Shown piece after piece: positions 1-12,024 of a DNA stretch of 64,000 nt. The stretch lies in assembly GCA_045541795.1 (NCBI GenBank), contig JAZQJV010000018.1, positions 118,236 through 182,235 of the forward strand. The letters run 5' to 3'. Position 1 is the first letter of the stretch. Each line of letters starts with the position of its first letter. Origin of the DNA: Patescibacteria group bacterium (GTDB lineage Bacteria; Patescibacteriota; Microgenomatia; UBA1400; PJMF01). The notes below the pieces were generated by a model. It was not told where the DNA came from, made no database searches, and saw only the letters and a list, made by a program, of their open reading frames with translations. Made by a program: the position numbers and the translations under genes.

Positions 1-28
1 CTCAAATGTAGTGGCGGTAAACAACCCC

Positions 29-57
29 TTGACAAAACAAATATTTCTGGTATAATC
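29..57 (+). promoter_or_regulatory. Consensus sigma70 promoter: TTGACA, 17-nt spacer, TATAAT (TG-extended)
   Basis: Sequence ttgacaaaacaaatatttctggtataat is read directly. No annotated gene follows before the terminator at about 326-354. Confidence 0.55.
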
Positions 58-152
58 AGAGTTGTTCTTTGATATTGATTGCCGCTGCCGATTGCATGGC
101 GGTTTGGCGATCCGATAAAGACAAAATCTGGTTTTGCAGGAGGTGGCGGCCA

Positions 153-203
153 ATGATTGTGCGTTTGATGACGACTATGATTACAGATTGGGCGAACATC
201 TAG
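153..203 (+). CDS. Micro-ORF of 16 aa (MIVRLMTTMITDWANI) with a strong Shine-Dalgarno sequence (gcaggaggtgg) 6-7 nt upstream
   Basis: Read directly. It lies inside a promoter-to-terminator unit of about 300 nt. Function unknown (small peptide or sRNA). Confidence 0.2.
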   Translation: MIVRLMTTMITDWANI

Positions 204-325
204 CTCTCAAAAGAAGTGGGACGACAGATAGGAAAAATGCGCTTTTGGGCAGACTGATGGGCTCTACACTGTCAGTCTAGGAAGCAAAGCTGTACCATTG
301 CAAATTCGGAAATAAGGTTCAATTA

Positions 326-354
326 GCCCCGGAAATAATCCCGGGGCTTTTTTT
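326..354 (+). terminator. Rho-independent terminator: gccccgg, loop aaataat, ccggggc, then T7
   Basis: A perfect 7-bp GC stem followed by seven T residues. Confidence 0.7.
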
Positions 355-388
355 ACACAGATACAGGCAGGTAAAACACACAGGTTAA

Positions 389-565
389 GTGGGTAAAGAA
401 TTATCTAGTAATCGCACTGAACACGTAATTTATTTGCTTGACGAGCCAACCACTGGTTTGCATTTTGAGGATGTACAGCGATTGCTTTCGATTTTAAGTT
501 CGCTGGTAGGACAAAACTCCAAGTCATGGACAGGTAAGTTTTTGGTCACTGAATTGGCGCGTTAG
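389..565 (+). pseudogene. uvrA: UvrA C-terminal fragment, roughly a 58-codon remnant
   Basis: Translation ...[37 protein letters not shown]... carries the UvrA-specific [10 protein letters not shown] Walker-B region. The frame is closed by stops on both sides with no upstream part of the gene. Confidence 0.5.
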
Positions 566-834
566 TCGCAGAGAGTAATGTTTAGTTTTTGTGATGAATT
601 ACCCCGACCTTACGGTCGGGGTTATGGACAAATGTGATATGAATTATTTTGAACAATTATGTCTACTCAAAATTATAGTGACTACGCCCAGATTAACCTG
701 ATAACACCTATTGAATATGATCACTATTCAATTAGTTTGTTTAGGTTTTATCAATGTGAAAATTAATAAGTTGCCCAGCACGAGTTTGTTATAATCGGCT
801 TTAGGTTAATAATTTGTCTGGTCACCAGGCATAA

Positions 835-1374
835 GTGCCAACATTATTAACTGGAGGTTATATCACTTTTGCCTGGAAATCCATATGCGACCATCATGAC
901 TATAATCGTATTGATTTGCATGCCTTTAGACTGGACAATAGCTTTACTTATACAGTTTCACTTACAGTCAATTATGACAAGGTTAATCTTTTAGAGAAAC
1001 TGCCAGTCTTACCAAAGTTCGAACAATTATTTATAACTTTCAATCAACCACAAATGCTACTGACCGATACTTTATTGTGGCACGCTGATCGTTGTTACCA
1101 ATTTCAGGGACAAACATTCAATTATGTCCTCATCAGAGCACTGGTAAAAGCCAATGGAGAAATTCCCTGGAACGATCAGCTGCTGCTGATGTATGATCCT
1201 GGTCCTCTTCATCTAAGTAGCTCGAAAATAGATGATAGAAGTACTTTAATTTGTCGTGCTATAGATGACCTTAACTTGGAGCTCAAACAAAAACTTAAAA
1301 TGAATTTTACACCGATACACAGACGTAAAAATAAATTTATTAAATTTGATAAACAAATTATACTATCGACATAG
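835..1374 (+). CDS. Hypothetical protein in the AT-rich region
   Basis: ORF of 179 aa with no recognisable motif. Its low GC matches the surrounding island. Confidence 0.35.
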   Translation: MPTLLTGGYITFAWKSICDHHDYNRIDLHAFRLDNSFTYTVSLTVNYDKVNLLEKLPVLPKFEQLFITFNQPQMLLTDTLLWHADRCYQFQGQTFNYVLIRALVKANGEIPWNDQLLLMYDPGPLHLSSSKIDDRSTLICRAIDDLNLELKQKLKMNFTPIHRRKNKFIKFDKQIILST

Positions 1375-1469
1375 ACTCACTTAGCTGGAGTTACTCTAGG
1401 CTCAGTTTTTGCTTCTCTGGTAGTTTAATATCCCTGTCTAGAAATTAGTCGAGGCTATTAAACGACCGC

Positions 1470-1679
1470 ATGAGACAGAGCACAATAGTAGTACCAGCTC
1501 GCACCGACATCGGGAAAAAATATCGTACTAGCTACGACCCTATATCAGAGCAGGACGTTCACGATTTTATTGCTGCCGTTAAGGCAGATAGTGGATGGGT
1601 ATTGAAGTTTGATGAGGCAAAACAAACAGCCAATGATTTAATAGAGTTGGCCAAATTAGTCAATAAATATCAGGAATAA
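1470..1679 (+). CDS. Hypothetical small protein (69 aa)
   Basis: ORF only. It sits just upstream of the YhcG-like gene. Confidence 0.3.
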   Translation: MRQSTIVVPARTDIGKKYRTSYDPISEQDVHDFIAAVKADSGWVLKFDEAKQTANDLIELAKLVNKYQE

Positions 1680-1735
1680 CTGTCTTAAAAGTCTTGCATT
1701 TTTAATCAATTTGTGATATAAAGACCACATTAATT

Positions 1736-2824
1736 ATGACAAACACAAAAAAGATCCAGACAGTTACTAGTAACGATATGTCGATGTCTAATGATCAAGA
1801 GTATCGGGAATGGTTAGTCGACTTAAAAACAAGATATCAACATAGTCGCATTAAAGCATCTATAAAAATTAATTATGAGGTCATTTTTTATTACTGGTCT
1901 GTTGGTCGTGACATTGTGATTAAAAAAGCCGAATCAAAATGGGGTAGTGGTTTTTATGATAATTTGAGTCGCGATCTACGACGAGAATTACCTGGTATAC
2001 AGGGATTATCAAAAACAAATCTCAAATACATGAAGTACTTTTATGATCTTTTTCCAGATGTGTTTACTGATAAGTCAATTCGTCCACAAGTTGTGGACGA
2101 ATTGGAGCAAATACCTTGGGGACATATCCGATATATTATAGATAAGTGTCGCGGTGATCAACAAAAGGTGATATTTTTCATCAATAAGACCGTGGAAAAC
2201 AACTGGTCGAGAGCAATGCTGCTAAATTTCCTGGATACAGATCTTTACGAGAGGCAAGGGAAGGCGATTACGAATTTTACCAATAAGTTAGCTTCGCCTC
2301 AAGGAGAATTAGCTCAACAGCTTACCAAAGATCCTTACAGTTTTGACTTTCTTACTATGAGAGAAAACTATCAAGAAAAAGAGCTTAAGGATGCCCTGAT
2401 TGCTAATATTGAAAGATTTCTGCTGGAACTTGGCAAAGGTTTTGCTTATATGGGACGGGAATACCGCTTACAAATCGGTGAAACTGAAAAATTTATAGAT
2501 ATGCTCTTTTACAACACTGTCCTGCGTTGTTACGTGGTAGTAGAAGTCAAAGTGGAGAAATTTGAATCCGGACATTTAGGGCAATTGGGATTGTATGTGA
2601 CCGCGGTTAATCATCAGCTCAAAAACGAAACTGACAATCCCACTATCGGTCTGTTGATTTGCAAGAGCAAAGAGAATGTGGTGGCGAAATACTCGCTAGA
2701 AAGCATGGCGGTGCCGATCGGAATATCAGAATATGAGTTGCAAAAAATCTATCCCGCTGATTTCAAGAGTAGTTTGCCAACGATAGAGGAGATAGAGAAT
2801 GAGCTGGCTGATAATAACGATTAG
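1736..2824 (+). CDS. YhcG/DUF1016-family PD-(D/E)xK nuclease-like protein (copy 1)
   Basis: The N-terminal DUF1016-like region (YYWSVGRDIV...KAESKWGSGF...DLSRDL) and the C-terminal PD-ExK motif (FIDMLFYN...CYVVVEVK) are typical of the YhcG family. A paralog lies at 5609-6736. Confidence 0.65.
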   Translation: MTNTKKIQTVTSNDMSMSNDQEYREWLVDLKTRYQHSRIKASIKINYEVIFYYWSVGRDIVIKKAESKWGSGFYDNLSRDLRRELPGIQGLSKTNLKYMKYFYDLFPDVFTDKSIRPQVVDELEQIPWGHIRYIIDKCRGDQQKVIFFINKTVENNWSRAMLLNFLDTDLYERQGKAITNFTNKLASPQGELAQQLTKDPYSFDFLTMRENYQEKELKDALIANIERFLLELGKGFAYMGREYRLQIGETEKFIDMLFYNTVLRCYVVVEVKVEKFESGHLGQLGLYVTAVNHQLKNETDNPTIGLLICKSKENVVAKYSLESMAVPIGISEYELQKIYPADFKSSLPTIEEIENELADNND

Positions 2825-2845
2825 TAAAAATTAAGGTAATAACAT

Positions 2846-4273
2846 ATGTTCACACCTTTTGGCAAGAATCTCGACAATCTAAGTTTTGAAGACATTCAAA
2901 AATTTTGCGATAAAGGTGTTGCTGAAAATATTTATATTGATTACAAGAAAGAAATTAATCAGAAGAATGATCATCTTGCCAAAACTATTGCGTCCTTTGC
3001 TAATACACATGGCGGCTGGATAATAATTGGAGTAGAAGATAAGAATGATCGTCCAAACTCTCCATTTAACGGGATTGACTATACAGATGGAATAGAGTCT
3101 AGTATAACTACTATAATTGTTGACAATATTTATCCATATGTCGAAGTTACATCAAAGGTTATTGTCAACCATGATAATAAAAGAGCTTTTGTTGTAGTGT
3201 ATGTCCCAGAAAGTCATAAAACACCACATTGGATTAACAGCAGAAGGGATCTTTATATTAGAGCTAATACTAGAACAAAAACTGGCAGAGATGATATTAA
3301 GAATAAAAACGAAGACTTGGATATTTACGCCACTTCTGAAAATTGGGAATTCTTAAGAAATAAAAGGGAAAGGTCTCAACAACTGGCAATAGAATTGGAA
3401 ACAGCTTTAAATCGTTTGTTTCTATCATATAAAGATAAAGAAGAACGTTTGTGGTATCAAAATAACGAAAAAGTTAAAAATAATCCGTCGCTGCAAAGTA
3501 TAATATCTGAAGATATGGATACACTCGACTGTGCAGATCCAAGTATCACAACAATTAAAAATAGGCGAGAGTTCAGAAGCGAATGTTATCATGATAACAT
3601 TAGTATTATTGTCCAGCCAGTTTTCCCATCATACGCTATTTCTTCACCGCGTGATTTGAGAGAACACTATTCGTCTAACAGCGGTGCAAACCTCACTAAC
3701 GTTGGTTCACTTGACGAAAACTACAAACTTGATTATTTTCAAAACGGGATAGTAACTTTTTTTACTCCCGACAATAAGACAGGCAACCATTGCGCATTTT
3801 TTGCTCAAGACATCTTTGGTTCGTGCATGGTAAAACACAAGATAGTTCAACACAATCGAAAGAAGATTGATAACTACCAGGGTTATGAAGTGCCGCCAAA
3901 TAGTAACATTATTGACTTTGAATACTTGATAGTTTATATTGAACAATTTTTAAAATATGCATCAGTTTTTTATAAACAAATTGGTTATTTAGGCGAACTT
4001 AGACTTAAGGTGGTCATGAATGTGCCAGAATGGTCATATATGATAATTCATGATTCAACCAAGAATTTTCCGCTTGCATATAGTAATTCTGATAAATATT
4101 TTCTTTGGGAGAAAGTTTTTATTAATGCTGATTTTGTTAACGATCAAGAACGAAATAAAATACTAAATACTATGTATGAAAGTATTGGATTCTTTTTTAA
4201 TTGTGACGAAATTCCTAAACAAATAATTAATAATCTGAGAAAGAATCCAAATAATGCTAATGAGCAACTTTAA
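2846..4273 (+). CDS. AlbA_2 (Schlafen-like, divergent AAA-4) domain protein with an uncharacterised C-terminal region of about 350 aa
   Basis: The N-terminal motif TIASFANTHGGWIIIGVED matches the AlbA_2 DNA-binding domain signature. It lies 21 nt after the YhcG-like gene with an SD (aaggt), so a two-gene operon is likely. Confidence 0.6.
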   Translation: MFTPFGKNLDNLSFEDIQKFCDKGVAENIYIDYKKEINQKNDHLAKTIASFANTHGGWIIIGVEDKNDRPNSPFNGIDYTDGIESSITTIIVDNIYPYVEVTSKVIVNHDNKRAFVVVYVPESHKTPHWINSRRDLYIRANTRTKTGRDDIKNKNEDLDIYATSENWEFLRNKRERSQQLAIELETALNRLFLSYKDKEERLWYQNNEKVKNNPSLQSIISEDMDTLDCADPSITTIKNRREFRSECYHDNISIIVQPVFPSYAISSPRDLREHYSSNSGANLTNVGSLDENYKLDYFQNGIVTFFTPDNKTGNHCAFFAQDIFGSCMVKHKIVQHNRKKIDNYQGYEVPPNSNIIDFEYLIVYIEQFLKYASVFYKQIGYLGELRLKVVMNVPEWSYMIIHDSTKNFPLAYSNSDKYFLWEKVFINADFVNDQERNKILNTMYESIGFFFNCDEIPKQIINNLRKNPNNANEQL

Positions 4274-4299
4274 CTTCCCGTCTCAAAAACTCCCCAATC

Positions 4300-4365
4300 A
4301 TGCTATAATCAACCTCAAGTAACTGGGTTCGGATTTCCCGCCAGAAACCACCAAAAAATAGGATA
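4300..4365. repeat. Direct repeat copy 1: TATAAT box, 15 nt, then conserved 30-mer gggttcggatttcccgccagaaaccacc
   Basis: Aligns over about 65 bp with 6835-6902. The 30-mer (4325-4352) is identical apart from one base. Confidence 0.7.
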
Positions 4366-4423
4366 TTGAAGTACGCAAATTATATCCATATAAAAACGAT
4401 ATTTTAAGCAAATTATTTGGTAT

Positions 4424-5602
4424 TTAATCATTATTGTTAATGTTTAAAAGTAATTGTAATCTTTTCATGATTTCATCGAATGTTATTATTATATTTCTGG
4501 AAACACTCTTTCTGAATAAGTTGAACGATCTTTCTTGTTCTTCAAGAAGTCCTGATTTGTTACCGATAATAATTATTCCTAATGGATCAAGAGCATTCAA
4601 GCGGTTATCTTCATAATCTTTTCCAATAAGAGTTGAAAAATTATCACTCGCAATTCTAATTTGATTTTCTAGTTGAACTATCGCACCACTCAATTCGTCA
4701 GACATGGAATAGCACACATTCTCTCCAACGGCATCTGAATTGCCTCTATATTGATGTCCAATAATGGCACTTTGCGGTGTTTTAATTTCAATAACTGCAA
4801 AGCTTTTATTTGAAAGATTTTGCAAAAGAAAATCAGCGGCGACTCCTCCTTGGCCGTTTCTTCCACGACTGTTCTTTCCTCCTAGATATGTTTCGCCATT
4901 CAAATAACAGACTGGACAATAAAACAAACTCTCAAAAATCCACTGATTTTCTGTGAAGAATGCTTGCCAAAAGTTTTCTTTTTGGTTATTATTCATATTT
5001 TTCGCAATTGTATTAATTGCATTCTGCAATTTGGCTAGTAATATAATATTTTCTAATACTCTGATGTTTCCTTTTCCTAAATCTCTTAACTTGGTAATAA
5101 CCATTTCCTTATTTTTAATATCGCCAATTTGCAATAAAACACTTTCTATATTTCCTTCTCCAATAGATATTGTTGTGGTTCCAAATTTAATACCGTTTTC
5201 ATTTAGAGTCTCTCTAATTAACGGTAAATGCTCAAAGAGATTTTTCATGGCTTCACCATCAAGGTTGAGATCATAAAATTCTCCTTTTCTTAACTTAGTA
5301 ACAGATAGGCCTTTATAACTTTGCCAGTTGTCATTAATTCCTTTTCTTTCCCATCTGAAACCTCCTCGCAATGGTTTGTCAGTTTGAGATGGGTCTACCC
5401 ACTTTGGGTAAAAAAGTAATCTTGTGCTTTCAGTTTCTTTTAGTATAATTGGGGAAATATCAGCGGTTTTATTGGAAGTAGATTTTATTGTTATATCTTT
5501 TGATTCTTTCTGTTTGTCTGTAAATCCCTTGCGAGGTAGCGTGAAATCTATTTCTCCTGAAATATTGCTAAAATCATATTTTGGAGTCATGGTGGCTTTC
5601 AA
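4424..5602 (-). CDS. Shedu-like (DUF4263) PD-(D/E)xK nuclease
   Basis: Of 392 aa. The C-terminal half carries WQAFFTENQWIFESLF, ADFLL and VIEIKTP (a D...ExK motif), and ends in NIIITFDEI, as DUF4263/SduA-type proteins do. It lies 6 nt downstream of YhcG-like copy 2 in the same orientation. Confidence 0.5.
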   Translation of the reverse strand: MKATMTPKYDFSNISGEIDFTLPRKGFTDKQKESKDITIKSTSNKTADISPIILKETESTRLLFYPKWVDPSQTDKPLRGGFRWERKGINDNWQSYKGLSVTKLRKGEFYDLNLDGEAMKNLFEHLPLIRETLNENGIKFGTTTISIGEGNIESVLLQIGDIKNKEMVITKLRDLGKGNIRVLENIILLAKLQNAINTIAKNMNNNQKENFWQAFFTENQWIFESLFYCPVCYLNGETYLGGKNSRGRNGQGGVAADFLLQNLSNKSFAVIEIKTPQSAIIGHQYRGNSDAVGENVCYSMSDELSGAIVQLENQIRIASDNFSTLIGKDYEDNRLNALDPLGIIIIGNKSGLLEEQERSFNLFRKSVSRNIIITFDEIMKRLQLLLNINNND

Positions 5603-5608
5603 TCAAAA

Positions 5609-6736
5609 TTACCTATTTGCTTCTAGCAACTTTTTCTCTATCTCCTCTATCGTCGGCATCGTTCCTTCCACCTTTTGCGGATACAACTTCTCCAGTTCGT
5701 ACTCCGAAATTCCCAATGGTTGATTGCTAGATTCCAAAGCATACTGAGCGATTAAATTATCTTTTTGCTTGCAAATGAGCAAACCGATAGTCGGATTATC
5801 TCGTCCTTCTTTTTGTAAAAGGTGATTGCAAGAAACCACGTAACCGCCAAGTTGCCCCAAATCGGCAAAATCAAATTCGCCAATTTTCACTTCAACCACA
5901 ACGTAACAAGACAACTGTAAATTATAGAAAAGCAAATCAATAAATTTTTCTTTCTCGCCGATTTGCAGTCGATACTCTTTTCCCACATACGCGAAGCCCG
6001 TGCCAAGTTCTAATAAAAATTTGGTTATATTTTCTAGCAGGGCATCTTTTAATTTACGTTCATTGTATTTATCGGTAATACCAGTAAAAGCAAAATTATA
6101 TGGATCTTTTGTTAATTCCTGAGCTAAATCGCTAGTAACATTGGGTAAGGTTTTGCCAAAATTCGTCAATGCTTTTCCTCGTCGATCATAAAGATCGGTT
6201 TCAATAAAATTGAGTAGCATATCTCGGCTCCAACCATTTTCTATTGTTTGGTGAACAAAAAAGAGTGCTTTTTGTGGTTCTGTTTTGAATTTATCAATTA
6301 ACAGCTTATGATGGCCCCACGGAACAGAAAAAATGTCGCTTTCAATTTTCTCAATGACTTGCTGAGTAATTACATTACTTTCTATTTGCTCCCCAACTTG
6401 GGGAGCAATTTCGAAATATTGATGGTAAAGTATATAAAAGTTTTTCATGTACAACAAATTTGTCGGCGAAAAACACGTTGCGTCAGGATTGAGAGTTTTA
6501 AGGTCTCGGCTGAGATTTTTCATGAAACCACTGCTCCATTTACTTTCGGCTTTCATTACCACAATGTCTCTGCCCAAATCATAGTAAAAACGAAGCATTT
6601 CCCGATTAACTTTTACTGCTGCTCTAACTTGGCTCAAGCGATAACGAGAAGAAAGCTTCCCAATCCACGAGGCATAATTTTCATCTAGAATTGTTAGTGA
6701 CTGAACTTGTTTTGCAACCTGTTTTTTCTCTGTCAT
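5609..6736 (-). CDS. YhcG/DUF1016-family PD-(D/E)xK nuclease-like protein (copy 2)
   Basis: Clearly paralogous to 1736-2824 (RFYYDLGRDIVVMKAESKWSSGF; FIDLLFYN...CYVVVEVK). It is the first gene of the minus-strand two-gene operon. Confidence 0.65.
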   Translation of the reverse strand: MTEKKQVAKQVQSLTILDENYASWIGKLSSRYRLSQVRAAVKVNREMLRFYYDLGRDIVVMKAESKWSSGFMKNLSRDLKTLNPDATCFSPTNLLYMKNFYILYHQYFEIAPQVGEQIESNVITQQVIEKIESDIFSVPWGHHKLLIDKFKTEPQKALFFVHQTIENGWSRDMLLNFIETDLYDRRGKALTNFGKTLPNVTSDLAQELTKDPYNFAFTGITDKYNERKLKDALLENITKFLLELGTGFAYVGKEYRLQIGEKEKFIDLLFYNLQLSCYVVVEVKIGEFDFADLGQLGGYVVSCNHLLQKEGRDNPTIGLLICKQKDNLIAQYALESSNQPLGISEYELEKLYPQKVEGTMPTIEEIEKKLLEANR

Positions 6737-6834
6737 AGTGGCTATTACTTATAGCACAATAACGCTATTTTGTCAATACTGATAATTAATTATTATTGGC
6801 ATTTATTTTCAATTCTTGCAAAAACAACTTCATA

Positions 6835-6902
6835 CTGTTATAATCAGTTTCAAATAATTGGGTGCGGATTTCCCGCCAGAAACCACCCCAAAAAGATGGG
6901 AT
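6835..6902. repeat. Direct repeat copy 2: TATAAT box, 15 nt, then conserved 30-mer (6860-6887)
   Basis: Same spacing and sequence as copy 1. Here it serves as promoter and leader of the zinc-ribbon/TM2 gene. Confidence 0.7.
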
Positions 6903-6922
6903 TACTGCGATGAAAGTGAAAC

Positions 6923-7256
6923 ATGACAGATGAAAAAACAAAATACTGTAAACATTGCGGTTCGCTTATTGATGTAGAATTGCATAATATGCCCGAAGTG
7001 TGGCAAGCAGGTCGAACAAGTAAAAGCCGAGCTTCCAAATGTAGTGATCAATAACAATAACACCAATTCGAATATAAACTATGCTGGTGCTGTGGGGAGC
7101 GGGCGGCCTATCAATAAGTGGATAGCTTTGGGTTTATGTCTTTTTCTGGGCATATTCGGTGCTCATAAGTTTTATGAAGGAAAGATTGGCATGGGAATAT
7201 TGTATTTGTTTACATTTGGTTTGTTTAGTCTTGGTTGGTTTTTAGATATTTTTTAA
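6923..7256 (+). pseudogene. Zinc-ribbon plus TM2-domain membrane protein split by an apparent +1 frameshift
   Basis: Frame A reads MTDEKTKYCKHCGSLIDVELHN.... The TM2 frame reads ...CPKCGKQVEQVKAELPNVV then INNNN...GAHKFYEGKIGMGILYLF (TM2 domain). The two CxxC halves of one zinc ribbon sit in different frames around position 6989. Confidence 0.5.
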
Positions 7257-7355
7257 TCCTAACAAAGCCTAATCCTTATTACATATAATACTTTTACATT
7301 TGCGTTTTTATTATAACTACGTTATAATAACACAAACTTTAAGGAAAATATAAAC

Positions 7356-8429
7356 ATGAAAAATCATCGAAAATTCCATCCTCGCATTATTGTCAATATC
7401 ATCTGTCTTTTTTCATTGGCATTATCTCACATTATTTTTTCGCTACCGATTAAAATAATTGATACAGTTTATGCCGTCGAGCGTGAAACTGTCACTGTGA
7501 GCCGTGTGATTGATGGTGATACAATCGTTTTGAATGATGGGCGAAAGGTTAGATATATTGGAATTGATACACCAGAAACAGTTCATCCAACAAAAAATGT
7601 GCAGTGTTTTGGGAAACAAGCCAGTAACAAAAATAGAGAATTAGTCCTTGGTAAAACTGTGGAACTGGAAAAAGATATCAGTGAAACTGATCGCTATGGA
7701 CGTTTACTCAGATATGTATATTTGGATGGCGTCATGATTAATCATAAATTAGTCGCTGAAGGTTATGCCACAACCGTAACCTATCCTCCAGATGTTAAGT
7801 ATAAAGAAGAATTCTCCAAAGCTCAGGCGCAGGCAAGACAAGCAAGACTTGGGCTATGGGGTAATGAATGCAACGAAAGCAGCAGCACTCACGCATCCTC
7901 AAACAACAATGCTAGCTCAAATACAAATAAAATGGATTCGTCAAGCACATCGTCATCATCTCAAAACAACAAAACTCAAAATGACCATGAAGGCAACCAA
8001 GCTTCTACTCAACCAACTAACACTAGCGCACAAAAATGTCCATCAAATTGTAGTGAGGCCAAAAGCATGGGAATGGTTAACATTACACCGTCGCATCCAT
8101 GCTGGCAAGAAAAATTTGATGGCGATAAAGATGGCGTGGGTTGTGAAAGTGACAACCGGTCTACCAATACAAAAACAACTAACAAATCCAATAATGTCAA
8201 TAAACAGACCAGTGCTACGCCGGCACCCACGCCAGTGCCAAGTCGCGCCCCAACGCCAGAACCAACCCCACCGCCTACGTCAGTGCCAGCTCCAGCTGCG
8301 CCAACCCAATCTTGTCCAAATAACTGTACCCAAGCAAAGGCAATGGGAATGGCCAATATGACACCTTCTCATCCTTGTTGGCAATCTAAATTTGACCGAG
8401 ATAAAGACGGTATTGGTTGCGAAGACTAG
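7356..8429 (+). CDS. Secreted thermonuclease (SNase-like) with two C-terminal Excalibur calcium-binding domains
   Basis: SNase motifs are RYIGIDTPE and DRYGRLLRYVY. Two repeats of C..C...MG..N.TPSHPCW..KFD.DKDG.GCE follow. An N-terminal TM or signal segment is present. Confidence 0.75.
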   Translation: MKNHRKFHPRIIVNIICLFSLALSHIIFSLPIKIIDTVYAVERETVTVSRVIDGDTIVLNDGRKVRYIGIDTPETVHPTKNVQCFGKQASNKNRELVLGKTVELEKDISETDRYGRLLRYVYLDGVMINHKLVAEGYATTVTYPPDVKYKEEFSKAQAQARQARLGLWGNECNESSSTHASSNNNASSNTNKMDSSSTSSSSQNNKTQNDHEGNQASTQPTNTSAQKCPSNCSEAKSMGMVNITPSHPCWQEKFDGDKDGVGCESDNRSTNTKTTNKSNNVNKQTSATPAPTPVPSRAPTPEPTPPPTSVPAPAAPTQSCPNNCTQAKAMGMANMTPSHPCWQSKFDRDKDGIGCED

Positions 8430-8438
8430 AAAGTAAAA

Positions 8439-9119
8439 ATGTCACAAAAAGATAATAGCAAACATTCTTGCAGAATAATCATGGCCGCATTGCTAGTGCT
8501 TCTAAGCATTGCATTGCTGCATAAATCTTTTTTTGCTGCCGCCTTCACTATCTGCTACGCATATCTCATCTCGCCACTATCAATTCAATTGGTAAGTAAA
8601 ATATGTAAGAAAGAAAATGAGAAATGGCTATATTCAACCATGACTTTTATTTTTGCTCTTTGCTGGATGACCACAATTCAAACTGGTCAGCCACAAATGG
8701 ATAATGTGTTAACGCAAAATAGTGAAAAAAACGCATCGCTAGAGAATGCGTCAACACAAAATAATGAAAAAATCGCTTCACTAGAAAAAGAGCTCCAATC
8801 AGTTAAGAACGAAAGAGATGAAATTCAAGCAAACAACCAAAAAAGAGCCATTTCAGCTGCCAAATCATATTTGGAATACAGTCCAATGTCGAGCCGAGAG
8901 TTGATTAAGCAACTCGAGTTAGAAGAATTTTCTCATGAAGACGCAGCATACGGTGTAGAGCATGCTGATATCAATTGGAACGATCAAGCATCACGGTCAG
9001 CAGTCCTCTTTATTGAGTTTGCTAATCCGTCAACCGAAGAATTAAAAAAACAACTTGAGTACGAAGGTTTCACAAGCAACGAAATAAAATTCGCCATTGA
9101 GCATAATAGTAATGGGTAA
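8439..9119 (+). CDS. Membrane-anchored protein with two C-terminal Ltp-type repeats (phage superinfection-exclusion lipoprotein family)
   Basis: The repeats AKSYLEYSPMSSRELIKQLELEEFSHEDAAYGV and ...STEELKKQLEYEGFTSNEIKFAIEH match the Ltp repeat pattern (YL..S...LI.QLEYEGF...A.YAV). An N-terminal TM segment and a coiled-coil repeat region are present. Confidence 0.55.
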   Translation: MSQKDNSKHSCRIIMAALLVLLSIALLHKSFFAAAFTICYAYLISPLSIQLVSKICKKENEKWLYSTMTFIFALCWMTTIQTGQPQMDNVLTQNSEKNASLENASTQNNEKIASLEKELQSVKNERDEIQANNQKRAISAAKSYLEYSPMSSRELIKQLELEEFSHEDAAYGVEHADINWNDQASRSAVLFIEFANPSTEELKKQLEYEGFTSNEIKFAIEHNSNG

Positions 9120-9148
9120 ATGACTCTATTGCTTCCAGTAAGGAAAGT

Positions 9149-9490
9149 ATGCCATCTACCAAAAGTTACCTTAATCACCTTCTAACTCAATTCTCGCAGT
9201 TGGATGATATTTCTTACCGCTCGATGATGGGGGAGTATATCATTTATTTCAAAGGCAAAGTAGTAGGTGGAATTTATGATGATCGATTTTTGGTCAAGAC
9301 AACAAAATCTGCACTCGCGTTGATGCCAAACACAAGCAAAGAATTACCATATCCCGGTGCGAAAGAAATGTTGTTGGTAGACGATACGGGAGACAAAGTA
9401 TTTTTACGCGAGCTGCTGACCGCGATATATGAGGAGCTGTCAGTGGTAAAGAAAAAAGAAAGCACATTAAAACGTTTATTAACGAATTGA
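9149..9490 (+). CDS. TfoX N-terminal domain protein
   Basis: MMGEYIIYFKGKVVGGIYDDRFLVK matches the TfoX_N motif (MFGGYGLY..G..FALV.DD.LYLK). Confidence 0.55.
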   Translation: MPSTKSYLNHLLTQFSQLDDISYRSMMGEYIIYFKGKVVGGIYDDRFLVKTTKSALALMPNTSKELPYPGAKEMLLVDDTGDKVFLRELLTAIYEELSVVKKKESTLKRLLTN

Positions 9491-9502
9491 CATTCATTGT
9501 CC

Positions 9503-10204
9503 TCATCTTTGACGTCTCGCTCTCTCCATATACTCTCTTTGCACCCGCATAAATAATTCCTTATCTGCCAAAAGCGTCCGGATCTCATTTAAAAAACGCT
9601 CGTACTCCGGATCAGAAAAAAAGTATTTCGCATAGCCGCCCTCACCAAATTTTTCTTTCAGGTGTTGCCAACTTCTCACAAACAATTGCTCGTCACTAAA
9701 ATCCGGATGTAAATTTTTACCATACACAAAACTTCGATACAAACAATCTTCTACGCTCGTATTTCTGTCCGCCGTGGACACAATTTTCCCGTACACGCTC
9801 CGGGGCTCGTGATTGCTTGAAGCACGATGATCTTCGATTGCCTCTTTAATCAGTTTTAATTGTTTACCGCTAAAAAAATCAGGCAAATGCTTATCCTCAC
9901 TCATCATCCGCGCAGAAATAATCTCATGCTTGGCTGGATCAATGTGATGTCCCAGATCATGATAAGCAGCCACAGTGTAGACAATGTCTAAGTTAACGTC
10001 GGTCAGTTTTTGCGCCAAGTTAATACTTCTTTCAATGACATATTTAATGTGTTTTAAATTATGAGCTGGCTCATTTTGAGCGTACTGCGGGAAAACATTT
10101 TGCTGGATGTATGTTTGTAATTTTCTATTGACGGTAGGATAAAAATTATTTTCTAACATAAACATTACTATATTATAACACGAGCAGACATTTTGAAAGC
10201 TCAA
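9503..10204 (-). CDS. HD-domain phosphohydrolase
   Basis: HD motif (TVAAYHDLGHH). Confidence 0.6.
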   Translation of the reverse strand: MSFQNVCSCYNIVMFMLENNFYPTVNRKLQTYIQQNVFPQYAQNEPAHNLKHIKYVIERSINLAQKLTDVNLDIVYTVAAYHDLGHHIDPAKHEIISARMMSEDKHLPDFFSGKQLKLIKEAIEDHRASSNHEPRSVYGKIVSTADRNTSVEDCLYRSFVYGKNLHPDFSDEQLFVRSWQHLKEKFGEGGYAKYFFSDPEYERFLNEIRTLLADKELFMRVQREYMERARRQR

Positions 10205-10269
10205 AAATATAGCGTCCAGTTTTTACAACTTTCGCTCATTTCACCTTACCGGTATGGTATAATACCCCT

Positions 10270-10695
10270 ATGCAAAAATCAAATAATCTTATTTCAATTA
10301 TTTTGTGTGTGATCGCGGTGGTGAGTCTCGCTCTCAATGTCTACTGTGTCAATCAAAAACACACTCAGCCGGCGCCATCAAGTCAACTTGCCGAGGCACA
10401 GGCGGCCTACAAACTTTACATCGTCATCCCAGATAGTGTCACTGATACAGATAATTACATCCGTGAGCTGGAAACAATACTTGCCAATCGTGTCCCCGGC
10501 TACACGATGTATCCCACTCGTGGCGGCTCGCATGAAGACGACGGCAGCATGAGTTATCAGACCACTTTGGTCTGCGAGCTTTACGGCACTGATAAACAAA
10601 CTGTCACCCAAATTGCCCATCAAGTGATGACCAGTTTTAATGTGAACAGTGTGCCGGTGGCAACTCTTAGTTCACAGTGGGAAATAATTCGTTGA
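10270..10695 (+). CDS. Hypothetical secreted or membrane-anchored protein
   Basis: N-terminal hydrophobic segment. A TGnTATAAT box ends 6 nt before the ATG, so the mRNA looks leaderless. Confidence 0.4.
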   Translation: MQKSNNLISIILCVIAVVSLALNVYCVNQKHTQPAPSSQLAEAQAAYKLYIVIPDSVTDTDNYIRELETILANRVPGYTMYPTRGGSHEDDGSMSYQTTLVCELYGTDKQTVTQIAHQVMTSFNVNSVPVATLSSQWEIIR

Positions 10696-10735
10696 CGATC
10701 ATTACTGTGTAAAACTGGTACAAAACGCTACAGGT

Positions 10736-11833
10736 ATGGTGCAAACATTGATTAGGCGCTATTGGCAAACTGCATTCGCTGTTGTCCTCGTGTGTCTGTC
10801 ACTGTGGCAGCTGAGGTCTTTGTGGACTCTTCACCAATTAGATTTTCACGTTTATTATCAAGCTGGTAAAGCTTGGCGAGATGGCGGTGATCCTTATGGC
10901 GATCTAGGTCTTGGTGAAAGTTTGACCTTCCTTTATCCCGCCCCTGCTTTGCTTATCTTTTGGCCGCTTTCATTTTTGGATCTGGAGACAGCACAAAAAG
11001 TGTGGTTGCTCATCAATCTGAGTTTGATTTTTGCCAGTGTTTATTTGTGTCTCACGCTCCATCGCACGAAAATTGCCTTAGCATCAGTAATGCTGTTTTA
11101 TGCTTTTGTCCTGCAAACATTTAGCGTCAAGTATAATCTTGGCATGGGGCAGATTAATGTTTTAGTGTTATTTTTGGTTTTATCCACCTGTCACTTGCTT
11201 TCTCGCCAGCATACAAGGTTAGCGGGTTTCTTTTTAGGGCTGGCGGGCGTCGTTAAAATCTGGCCTTTGGCCTTGTTGCCGTTTTTGTTATCTAAAAAAC
11301 AGTGGACAGTGTCTATAGTCGCCATTCTCACATTTTTGCTGCTTCAATTGCCTTGGTGGCAGACGACGGCGCGCAGTTTTGCCGCTGTCAGCGCGCACTT
11401 ACATACGGCAGGGTCAATCAGCGATGACGTCTACGACCAGTCGTTTATTGTTGCCCTTAATCGTCTGATGAATTGGTCGGGATGGAAAATAGTAGTGCCG
11501 GCCGCGATGATCGCCATTTACGCCTTTGTAAGCTATCGCTTTGGCCAATGCTTACCAATTGATGAAGTTTGCTTGTTTCTAATCATTCCCATCATTTTTG
11601 CGGCGTCGCCGGTGTACGCTCACTATCTGATTTATCTTTATCCGTGCTTATATCTATTACTCCGGCGCCATTGGCTGGCTTTGCTGTGTGCTTGGTTGTC
11701 GGTGCAAATTAAAATTGGTACGGATACAGTGTGGTATTTACGCTCGTATTATGCATGGTGGGCAGCATTGCTTTGTATTATAGCATTGGTTTATGGCGGC
11801 AGCAAAAAGAATTGGCATCGACTTCCCGTATAA
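10736..11833 (+). CDS. Polytopic membrane protein, DUF2029/GT87-like glycosyltransferase
   Basis: N-terminal DFHVYYQAG....PYGD....FLYPAPALL motif and more than 9 TM helices. Confidence 0.45.
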   Translation: MVQTLIRRYWQTAFAVVLVCLSLWQLRSLWTLHQLDFHVYYQAGKAWRDGGDPYGDLGLGESLTFLYPAPALLIFWPLSFLDLETAQKVWLLINLSLIFASVYLCLTLHRTKIALASVMLFYAFVLQTFSVKYNLGMGQINVLVLFLVLSTCHLLSRQHTRLAGFFLGLAGVVKIWPLALLPFLLSKKQWTVSIVAILTFLLLQLPWWQTTARSFAAVSAHLHTAGSISDDVYDQSFIVALNRLMNWSGWKIVVPAAMIAIYAFVSYRFGQCLPIDEVCLFLIIPIIFAASPVYAHYLIYLYPCLYLLLRRHWLALLCAWLSVQIKIGTDTVWYLRSYYAWWAALLCIIALVYGGSKKNWHRLPV

Positions 11834-12024
11834 ATTTTCTCCTGGTGTCGCGTTTCGGGTTTGTACCTAGGTAATTCCAATTTCCTTTTCGCATTTTTTA
11901 TGGTATAATCACGCATCTTACTCACTTTCACGGTCAGATCATCACGGTTTTGCTCGTGGAGGCGGGTGAAATCAGATCTTTGACAAGTGAAGTGAAATCA
12001 TACATCCTTAAAGGAGGAATTTCC

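What the first reader, a model, noticed from the sequence alone, without database searches (positions are those of the whole stretch)
4300..6902. Direct repeats of about 65 bp (promoter plus conserved 30-mer leader) bracket the Shedu-like/YhcG cassette
Both copies carry a TATAAT box, exactly 15 nt, and then gggt(t/g)cggatttcccgccagaaaccacc. They flank the 2.5-kb minus-strand operon precisely. Copy 2 is the native promoter and leader of the zinc-ribbon/TM2 gene. Copy 1 points into the convergent operon, where it could drive an antisense transcript.
This pattern fits the cassette having inserted into, or been captured together with, a duplicated promoter-leader. The 30-mer can form nested ggtg/cacc and gcgg/ccgc stems and may be a structured 5' RNA element.
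Basis: seen in the sequence. Interest (0 to 1): 0.6.

Follow-up and report, generated by a model that had tools for sequence, protein, structure and literature searches.

The report
Promoter-bearing junction repeat in a variable island
The two repeats are real: they belong to a small family of about 70-base elements (a promoter plus a short hairpin) that sit where gene cassettes, including this Shedu/YhcG defence cassette, have been swapped in related uncultured bacteria, and how that swapping happens is still unknown.

Summary
Two direct copies of a roughly 70-75 nt element lie at 4284-4358 and 6819-6893. They are 79% identical, and the 28-nt core differs at one base. They bracket the minus-strand sduA/yhcG-2 operon.

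The element is not a local duplication of the TM2 leader. It belongs to an island-specific repeat family. Two related metagenomic loci carry the same element after the same YhcG-1/Schlafen block: once in L003 and three times in L004. All copies have the same orientation and sit where gene content changes. Neither locus has Shedu or TM2.

Homology between genomes stops inside the element, at window 4345-4347. Copy 1 is a recombinant. Its promoter half matches the copy after the Schlafen gene in L004 (92%). Its hairpin half matches copy 2 (93%).

All six copies keep TGnTATAAT, a 14-15 nt spacer, and a bulged hairpin ending in (C)ACC. There is no Rfam match, no significant folding energy and no compensatory covariation.

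Best reading: this is a promoter-carrying cassette junction, possibly an att-like site. Whether recombination there is site-specific or homologous is unresolved, and no recombinase was found. Interest is moderate.

The parts
4284..4358 (+). Element copy 1. Its parts are the promoter half 4284-4322 (TGcTATAAT; -10 at 4304-4309; poor -35, TCTCAA), a predicted transcription start near 4316, a bulged hairpin at 4323-4344 (C4323-G4344, T-A, G-C, G4326-C4341, bulge GTT, C4330-G4340, G-C, G4332-C4338, loop ATTTC), and the CACC end at 4349-4352. It is an orphan: it faces the 3' end of sduA.
   Evidence: Homology to L003 ends at 4347 and to L004 at 4345.
6816..6893 (+). Element copy 2. Its parts are the -35 TTGCAA at 6816-6821, a 17-nt spacer, TGtTATAAT (-10 at 6839-6844), a predicted transcription start near 6851, the hairpin at 6858-6879, and CACCCC at 6884-6889. 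It lies upstream of the zinc-ribbon/TM2 gene.
   Evidence: Its promoter half is the most divergent of the six copies.
4424..5590 (-). sduA, the Shedu nuclease (388 aa from the ATG at 5590).
   Evidence: PADLOC SduA 1.3e-68. Pfam SduA_C and SduA_N. An identical 388-aa protein is on record (P0126); the next-best homologue is 54% identical.
5609..6736 (-). yhcG-2, a DUF1016/PDDEXK nuclease (PADLOC candidate family PDC-S02) and the first gene of the cassette operon.
   Evidence: It is 53% identical at the protein level to YhcG-1.
6748..6777 (-). The cassette's own promoter, read on the minus strand: TTGACA (6777-6772), 18-nt spacer, TATAAG (6753-6748), 11 nt before the yhcG-2 ATG. The mRNA would be nearly leaderless.
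   Evidence: Read directly from the sequence. The scan does not list it because that scan requires T at the last position of the -10.
1694..4322 (+). Conserved upstream block: its own promoter, yhcG-1 (1736-2824), a Schlafen/AlbA_2 gene (2846-4273), and the promoter half of copy 1. This block is shared with L004 (94%) and L003 (82%).
6923..7256 (+). The zinc-ribbon/TM2 gene downstream of copy 2. It is frameshifted near 6975-6985.
   Evidence: (TM2, PF05154). The best homologues are only 66% identical.

Best explanation
The two repeats are copies of an island-specific junction element about 70 nt long. It consists of an extended -10 promoter (TGnTATAAT, with a variable -35), a 14-15 nt spacer, a short bulged hairpin near the 5' end of the predicted transcript, and a (C)ACC end.

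In this lineage of uncultured bacteria the element marks the places in a low-GC accessory and defence island where blocks of genes are exchanged.

The sduA/yhcG-2 cassette, which has its own promoter, was recombined in through such an element, so one copy now lies on each side. Copy 1 pairs the resident promoter half, which belongs to the YhcG-1/Schlafen block, with a hairpin half like that of copy 2. Copy 2 pairs a foreign promoter half, brought in with the cassette, with the hairpin half linked to the TM2 gene.

Because every copy reads outward, whatever lies downstream keeps a promoter. Copy 2 now serves the TM2/nuclease/Ltp genes. Copy 1 is left as an orphan reading antisense into sduA.

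Shown: the repeat, the family, the synteny breakpoints inside the element, and the mosaic structure.

Inferred: promoter activity, the direction of the insertion, and the recombination mechanism. That mechanism could be site-specific, with a recombinase acting in trans, or homologous exchange between copies. I rate the two about equally likely.
For: - The repeat is real and not due to chance.
- L003, a MAG contig, carries one copy directly after the orthologous Schlafen gene, followed by unrelated genes.
- L004, a JGI contig, carries three copies in the same orientation. They separate the Schlafen block, a MazG-like/GIY-YIG/helicase/TfoX cassette, a membrane-protein/DNA-alkylation-repair/hydrolase cassette, and the outer flank.
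- Homology of the window to L003 stops at 4347 and to L004 at 4345, both inside the hairpin half.
- The mosaic pattern is reciprocal. For c1-c2 it is 69% versus 93% (p=0.016). For c1-L4_1 it is 92% versus 68% (p=0.013).
- TGnTATAAT and the spacing are kept in all six copies while neighbouring bases vary.
- In three of the six copies a plus-strand gene follows.
- The island is low in GC, 30-40% against 45-57% for the rest of the window.
- The third L004 copy is followed at once by sequence homologous to the last 7 nt of tRNA-His and its downstream flank in L003. The alignment score is 53, against 18.8 +/- 2.7 for shuffles. This fits an att-like role.
Against: - Only six copies from three genomes are available, and no single genome shows both ends of an array.
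- No integrase or recombinase was found among the island ORFs. L004 has only an IS-type rve_3 gene.
- The window island's right edge is not at an element. It lies inside a truncated HD gene.
- Promoter activity is only a consensus match.
- The p-values around 0.015 for the mosaic are modest and uncorrected for 15 comparisons. They matter because they are reciprocal and agree with the BLAST breakpoints.
- Gene conversion between copies could mimic the pattern.
Confidence: 0.6

Rival explanations
1. This is tRNA-His-linked tandem accretion. Under this reading the element is the attR-type junction of integrative islands that target the 3' end of tRNA-His. Successive integrations, followed by loss of the integration genes (CIME-like decay), left an array of cassettes separated by att repeats. 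This is a specific version of the best explanation rather than an alternative to it.
For: - L004 copy 3 ends ...CCAGAAG|TCACCCA and continues into a flank homologous to L003 1393-1455, which is the last 7 nt of tRNA-His plus the downstream sequence.
- All copies end in (C)ACC(C), like the tRNA 3' end.
- L004 copies 1 and 2 contain GGGTTGTGG, which is identical to the anticodon stem-loop of that tRNA-His.
- The layout resembles the Dehalococcoides ssrA islands. Those form tandem islands bounded by 20-bp repeats, with extra conservation around the repeats, and some lack integration genes (PMC3146451). It also resembles CIME accretion (PMC5704250).
Against: - Similarity of the hairpin halves to the tRNA-His body is not significant (p = 0.09-0.4).
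- Rfam tRNA does not match the element even at E<=10.
- In L003 the flank lies between tRNA-His and the island, not after the element.
- The window has no tRNA-His and no flank-like sequence in positions 1-12000.
- No integrase was seen.
Confidence: 0.25
2. Under it, insertion or capture of the Shedu cassette made a simple local duplication of the TM2 promoter-leader, and copy 2 is the native copy.
For: Two direct copies bracket the cassette, and the core is nearly identical.
Against: - The copy after the Schlafen gene exists in L003 and L004, where there is no Shedu cassette and no TM2 gene. It therefore predates this insertion and is independent of it.
- Identity is heterogeneous, 69% against 93%.
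- Copy 2's promoter half is the family outlier.
- L004 carries three copies in front of unrelated cassettes.
Confidence: 0.07
3. The conserved 30-mer is a structured cis-regulatory RNA that co-regulates the genes behind it. It could be a riboswitch-like or protein-binding leader, or a 5' stabilising hairpin. The repetition would then reflect shared regulation rather than recombination.
For: - A bulged hairpin starting about 7-8 nt after the predicted transcription start is compatible with 90.5% of cells across the six copies.
- Every change that keeps a pair intact is a C-to-U transition to a G-U wobble. Wobbles are tolerated only in the plus-strand RNA.
- The element always lies 14-15 nt after the -10.
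Against: - No Rfam family matches.
- Folding z-scores are -0.3 to -1.8.
- The RNAalifold consensus energy is -3.5 kcal/mol with a positive covariation term, and only one pair of its own differing consensus shows a double change.
- The named bulged hairpin shows no double change, and shuffle controls cannot separate it from chance.
- Three of the six copies have no plus-strand gene downstream.
- This model does not explain why synteny breaks inside the element.
Confidence: 0.15
4. The element is a miniature transposable or REP-like repeat (MITE, BOX or Correia type) that carries an outward promoter and has landed twice by chance around the cassette.
For: It is short, repeated, intergenic and promoter-bearing. 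Promoter-carrying repeats are known (general knowledge; compare the putative mobile promoters in PMC3488235).
Against: - There are no terminal inverted repeats and no whole-element hairpin.
- There are no target-site duplications.
- The window's two copies both lie in the island, and the copies seen in the two related loci lie in the same island.
- Copies are always in one orientation and always at synteny breaks.
- The exact core is absent from the public collections.
Confidence: 0.05

Closest known systems
Tandem att-bounded genomic islands and cis-mobilizable elements (CIMEs). Examples are the ICESt1/ICESt3-related elements of Streptococcus thermophilus and the ssrA islands of Dehalococcoides (PMC5704250, PMC3146451).
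   Same: - Cassettes of unrelated accessory genes are separated by short direct repeats, all in one orientation.
- The arrays differ between close relatives, and synteny breaks at the repeats.
- Some units lack integration genes.
- Conservation extends beyond the minimal repeat.
- There is a link to the 3' end of a small RNA gene (here tRNA-His, seen only through L003 and L004).
   Different: - The repeat here is not demonstrably a copy of the tRNA 3' end. Only about 4-7 nt (CACC(CA)) are shared.
- Its best-conserved part is a complete extended -10 promoter.
- No integrase was found in any of the three loci.
- The window has no tRNA-His next to the island.
Integron cassette arrays (attC sites).
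   Same: Direct, same-orientation recombination-site-like repeats of 57-141 nt separate exchangeable cassettes. Each junction would be a hybrid of two parental sites, as the mosaic of copy 1 suggests.
   Different: - The element is not an imperfect palindrome and does not fold as a whole.
- There is no IntI-like gene.
- Cassettes hold 2-4 genes with their own promoters and can be inverted.
- The repeat itself carries a promoter, whereas integron cassettes are mostly promoterless.
Putative mobile promoters (Matus-Garcia, Nijveen and van Passel, 'Promoter propagation in prokaryotes', PMC3488235).
   Same: Homologous promoter segments lie upstream of non-homologous genes: TM2, a MazG-like gene and a membrane protein.
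   Different: Here the copies are confined to one island, coincide with recombination breakpoints, and include a conserved transcribed hairpin. Half of them have no gene to drive.
Defence-island hotspots with conserved flanks (for example the P2/P4 satellite and prophage hotspots of E. coli). This comparison rests on my own knowledge and was not checked here.
   Same: Defence systems (Shedu; YhcG plus Schlafen) are swapped as self-contained cassettes between conserved anchor sequences.
   Different: The anchors here are 70-nt non-coding repeats within the island rather than conserved phage or core genes.

Membership tests
Integron attC site / cassette array | The site is an imperfect palindrome (R''-L''...L'-R') that folds as a single-stranded hairpin spanning the whole site. 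| tested here: not met
   No inverted repeat lies within either copy. DNA folds of whole elements on both strands give z = -0.25 to -1.9 and show only the small local hairpin.
Integron attC site / cassette array | An IntI tyrosine recombinase gene with attI and Pc lies next to the array. | tested here: not met
   Pfam, PHROGs and PADLOC scans of the main ORFs called in window 835-10695 and of most L004 genes find no recombinase. The rve_3 hit in L004 is a precomputed Pfam label. Sequence to the left of the window start was not available.
Integron attC site / cassette array | Cassettes are mostly single, promoterless ORFs in one orientation. | tested here: not met
   The Shedu cassette has two genes, its own TTGACA-N18-TATAAG promoter, and the opposite orientation to the repeats. 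The L004 cassettes hold 4 genes each.
tRNA-targeting integrative island / CIME accretion | Direct repeats bound each unit, all in the same orientation. | tested here: met
   There are two copies in the window and three in L004, all on the plus strand relative to the shared block.
tRNA-targeting integrative island / CIME accretion | The repeat is a copy of the 3' part of the target tRNA or tmRNA gene. | tested here: inconclusive
   L004 copy 3 joins the tRNA-His 3' end and flank at TCACCCA. However, the hairpin halves are not significantly similar to tRNA-His (p 0.09-0.4), and there is no Rfam tRNA hit.
tRNA-targeting integrative island / CIME accretion | The target tRNA gene lies at one end of the array. 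| tested here: inconclusive
   tRNA-His lies left of the island in L003. The window has only tRNA-Glu, at 23.8 kb. The L004 contig starts inside the island.
tRNA-targeting integrative island / CIME accretion | A cognate integrase lies in at least one unit or elsewhere in the genome, and circular excision products exist. | not testable with these tools
   None was seen in the available loci. The rest of the genome and the raw reads could not be examined.
Putative mobile promoter (PMP) | Highly similar promoter sequence lies upstream of non-homologous genes. | tested here: met
   Copy 2 precedes TM2. L4_1 precedes a MazG-like gene. L4_2 precedes a 226-aa membrane protein. Promoter halves are 62-92% identical.
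Putative mobile promoter (PMP) | The sequence is an active promoter. | not testable with these tools
   There are only consensus matches. TGnTATAAT is invariant in the six copies.
Known structured leader or riboswitch (any Rfam family) | A match to a curated covariance model. | tested here: not met
   There is no hit at gathering thresholds in the window, and none at E<=10 overlapping either copy.
Known structured leader or riboswitch (any Rfam family) | A conserved secondary structure supported by covariation. | tested here: inconclusive
   90.5% of cells are paired, with no two-sided changes, and the result cannot be distinguished from shuffles. The alifold energy is -3.5 kcal/mol.
MITE / REP-type dispersed repeat | Terminal inverted repeats or a palindromic body, target-site duplications, and dispersal around the genome. 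| tested here: not met
   There are no terminal inverted repeats. The window's only two copies in 64 kb both lie inside the island.

The most novel reading that the evidence does not exclude
The element is the attachment site of a cassette-exchange system not yet described. A recombinase encoded elsewhere would insert circularised multi-gene cassettes at a 70-nt site that itself carries a promoter. Arrays of defence and accessory cassettes would then build up next to tRNA-His without silencing downstream genes. In effect this would be an integron-like platform with promoter-bearing, non-palindromic sites in an uncultured lineage.
Probability: 0.2. Interest if true: 0.75.

Novelty: new variant of a known kind. 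Interest (0 to 1): 0.42.

Why it matters
If the element is a recombination junction, it shows how defence systems such as Shedu and YhcG-led pairs move as ready-to-express cassettes in a poorly known bacterial lineage. A promoter built into the junction would keep downstream genes transcribed after each insertion.

It also gives a practical handle. The 70-nt element could be used to find cassette arrays and cassette boundaries in metagenomes.

If it is only a reused promoter, the finding is a tidy but ordinary case of promoter propagation inside a mosaic island.

Tried and rejected
1. Exact 20-mer scans.
- The species-genome scan gave one hit (L001), in the glnA 5' UTR of an Acetivibrionales MAG. 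About one hit is expected by chance.
- The metagenome scan gave one hit (L002), inside a PrmC-like coding region, also chance.
- IMG/VR gave none.

2. A scan of IMG/VR with the promoter half (TGNTATAATCAACCTCAAG) gave one unrelated promoter in a 504-kb viral contig.

3. blastn of 4200-7300 against plasmids and phages matched only distant yhcG, apart from one 97-nt, 74% phage match within the TM2 gene.

4. Protein homologue searches.
- TM2 homologues reach only 66% identity.
- SduA homologues reach only 54%.
- No empty-site or cassette comparators could be found from that side.

5. Exact look-ups of window proteins mostly failed.

6. Cluster mates gave L006-L010. These are informative for the island edges but contain no element.

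7. tRNA origin of the hairpin was tested and is not significant.

8. The attC-like fold was rejected.

9. The tyrosine-recombinase-like palindrome GGATTTC-N6-GAAACCA is not conserved in L004 copies 1 and 2, judged by eye.

10. The flank next to tRNA-His is not present in window 1-12000.

12. The organism was not identified. NCBI labels the related MAG only as 'bacterium'.
Full report
**Observation**

The region was read directly. The repeat finder reports one 75-nt direct repeat, 4284-4358 versus 6819-6893, at 79% identity. The core GGGT(T/G)CGGATTTCCCGCCAGAAACCACC occurs exactly twice in the 64-kb window, with none expected in shuffles. TATAAT lies at 4304-4309 and 6839-6844, and the core starts exactly 15 nt later in both copies. 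With gaps allowed, similarity runs on to about 4364 and 6902.

The genes between the copies are sduA (4424-5590, minus strand) and a YhcG/DUF1016 PDDEXK nuclease (5609-6736, minus strand). The cassette has its own near-leaderless promoter in the 82 nt between yhcG-2 and copy 2. That promoter is TTGACA-N18-TATAAG on the minus strand at 6777-6748, read. The observation therefore stands, with minor corrections to the unit length and to the word 'precisely'.

**Surroundings**

Upstream on the plus strand lies a second two-gene unit. It holds yhcG-1 (1736-2824, 53% protein identity to yhcG-2) and a Schlafen/AlbA_2 gene (2846-4273). The Schlafen stop codon is 10 nt before copy 1.

Downstream of copy 2 lie four more genes:
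- a zinc-ribbon/TM2 gene that is frameshifted;
- an SNase-Excalibur nuclease;
- an Ltp-type lipoprotein;
- a TfoX_N-like gene.

Roughly the first 9.5-10 kb of the window have 30-40% GC, against 45-57% for the rest. The rest of the window carries housekeeping genes such as rpsD, rpoA, rplQ, dnaG and lepA. The repeats therefore sit inside a horizontally acquired, defence-rich island.

**Is it a known RNA or a stable structure?**

Rfam gives nothing at gathering thresholds and nothing overlapping either copy at E<=10. Single-sequence folds are not better than shuffles, with z from -0.3 to -1.8, and the two copies fold differently.

**Is the core a common leader?**

The exact 20-mer CGGATTTCCCGCCAGAAACC gives one hit in 185,579 species genomes. 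That hit is in the glnA 5' UTR of an Acetivibrionales MAG, and about one is expected by chance. It gives one hit in JGI metagenomes, inside a coding region, and none in IMG/VR. It is not a widespread motif.

**Relatives**

A search with the Schlafen protein found only four relatives.

The first is P0122, 82% identical, on a 6.5-kb MAG contig labelled 'bacterium' (L003).
- L003 1460-4786 aligns to window 1017-4347 at 82%.
- Right after the Schlafen gene it has a single copy of the element, with 3 mismatches in the core.
- The alignment ends inside the element.
- What follows in L003 is unrelated: an aldo-keto-reductase remnant and a cation-efflux gene on the other strand. There is no Shedu cassette and no TM2 gene.

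The second is a 90%-cluster mate, P0125, on a 25.9-kb JGI contig (L004).
- L004 91-2746 aligns to window 1694-4345 at 94%.
- It carries three copies of the element, at 2684-2752, 5400-5470 and 8973-9042, all in the same orientation.
- Between the copies lie two different four-gene cassettes: MazG-like/GIY-YIG/Schlafen-group-3 helicase/TfoX_N, and membrane protein/DNA-alkylation repair/hydrolase/cyclophilin-like. Only the first shows any defence-library hits, and those are weak.

An HMM built from the six copies finds no further copy in the window.

**Anatomy of the family**

All six copies keep TGnTATAAT. The best-conserved stretch is CAAAAACTCC..AATCaTGnTATAATCAACCTCAAG. A -35-like hexamer is present in four of the six copies: TTGCAA twice, plus CTGAAA and TTCAGA.

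After a 14-15 nt spacer comes a bulged hairpin (CUGG/CCAG plus CGG/CCG) and a (C)ACC(C) end. The hairpin half has two types:
- type A, TTCGGAyTTCCCGCCAGAA, in both window copies, L003 and L004 copy 3;
- type B, TTGTGrryTTCCwGyCAGA, in L004 copies 1 and 2.

The hairpin fits 90.5% of cells. Pairs that change but stay paired do so only through one-sided, wobble-preserving changes; four cells are unpaired. No pair shows a compensatory double change, and the shuffle control cannot separate it from chance. RNAalifold gives -3.5 kcal/mol. Whole-element DNA folds are unremarkable, so the element is not attC-like.

**Recombination signal**

Every comparison between genomes loses homology inside the element. 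The halves of the element have different relatives:
- copy 1 versus copy 2: 69% in the promoter half, 93% in the hairpin half (p=0.016);
- copy 1 versus L004 copy 1: 92% in the promoter half, 68% in the hairpin half (p=0.013).

Copy 1 is therefore a recombinant. Its left half belongs to the YhcG-1/Schlafen block, and its right half resembles copy 2. Copy 2's promoter half is the family outlier, 62-69% identical to all the others.

The simplest history starts from a site of the form Schlafen, [resident promoter half + hairpin], TM2. That site received a segment of the form [hairpin half ... sduA, yhcG-2 ... foreign promoter half].

**Link to tRNA-His**

In L003 a tRNA-His gene lies left of the island. 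In L004 the third copy ends ...CCAGAAG and runs straight into TCACCCA plus 56 nt. That stretch is homologous to the last 7 nt of the L003 tRNA-His and its downstream flank, with a score of 53 against 18.8 +/- 2.7 in shuffles.

This is what an attR junction of a tRNA-targeting island would look like. The overall layout also recalls the tandem ssrA islands of Dehalococcoides and CIME accretion (PMC3146451; PMC5704250).

Several results argue against it:
- the hairpin halves are not significantly similar to the tRNA body (p 0.09-0.4);
- the flank is absent from window 1-12000;
- in L003 the flank lies on the wrong side of the island for the simple model;
- no recombinase was found in any locus.

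I therefore keep site-specific and homologous exchange as roughly equal options.

**Island edges in the window**

On the left, a UvrA-like fragment (389-565) is shared with L003, L004 and L008. On the right, the HD gene is cut. It matches the intact 271-aa orthologue at 96% up to residue 217 and then diverges. The right edge is therefore an illegitimate junction near 9515, not an element.

**Verdict**

The repeat is real and functionally suggestive, but it is not a one-off duplication. It is a new, narrowly distributed family of promoter-bearing junction elements in a mosaic island. It is closest in kind to att-bounded tandem islands and CIMEs, and to 'mobile promoters' (PMC3488235). It differs from the former in carrying a conserved promoter and in lacking demonstrable tRNA identity or an integrase. 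The mechanism remains inferred.

Interest is moderate. It would be high only if a dedicated recombinase and circular cassette intermediates were shown.

Noticed in passing
window 6923-7256 (shift near 6975-6985): The zinc-ribbon/TM2 gene is frameshifted inside the zinc ribbon. MTDEKTKYCKHCGSLIDVE is in one frame and NCIICPKCGKQ...TM2 is in the next. At 111 aa repaired, it is also shorter than its homologues (115-168 aa). It is either a pseudogene or a sequencing error.
   Followed up: partly
window 1694-4273 and 4424-6777: There are two paralogous YhcG/DUF1016 nucleases (53% identical; PADLOC candidate PDC-S02). Each leads a two-gene operon with a different partner, Schlafen/AlbA_2 or SduA. 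Each has a near-leaderless promoter 11-13 nt before the ATG. YhcG may be a shared module of two-gene defence systems.
   Followed up: partly
window 27-355; L008 1-140: A strong promoter (TTGACA-N16-TGgTATAAT at 29-56) is followed by about 290 nt with no ORF of 50 aa or more, ending in a clean intrinsic terminator (GCCCCGGAAATAATCCCGGGGCTTTTTTT). The 3' part is conserved in L008. This may be an sRNA. There is no meaningful Rfam hit; only the terminator matches. The promoter resembles the promoter half of copy 2.
   Followed up: partly
window 389-565; L004 1-99; L008 170-520: A UvrA-like C-terminal fragment, probably a pseudogene, flanks the island on the left in all relatives. L004 lacks window 467-1693, apparently through a deletion between two TTGCATTTT microhomologies.
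   Followed up: partly
window 9503-10204 (minus strand); L006 2032-2847: The HD-domain gene has lost its last ~54 codons compared with the 271-aa orthologue in L006 and L007. It is 96% identical up to residue 217 and then diverges. This marks the right edge of the low-GC island near 9515.
   Followed up: yes
L001 1745-1790: The glnA 5' UTR of an Acetivibrionales MAG contains GCGGATTTCCCGCCAGAAACC, preceded by a half-repeat, CGCGATTTCCCGG. A chance 20-mer hit is expected about once at this database size, but the position just before a ribosome-binding site is curious. There is no Rfam hit.
   Followed up: partly
L004 5056-5373 versus window 9149-9490: A TfoX_N-like gene, 71% identical at the nucleotide level, ends a cassette just before an element in L004. 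In the window it abuts the truncated HD gene with no element after it.
   Followed up: no
L003 3290-4698; L008 465-1838; L010 1398-1985: The YhcG-1/Schlafen unit is decaying in relatives. The Schlafen gene is split in L003. yhcG-1 is split in L008 and L009. In L010, yhcG-1 has an internal deletion and the Schlafen gene is missing.
   Followed up: no
window 4390-4419 and 7282-7311: A 30-nt inverted repeat, 70% complementary, lies outside the two element copies. It is probably an AT-rich chance match.
   Followed up: no
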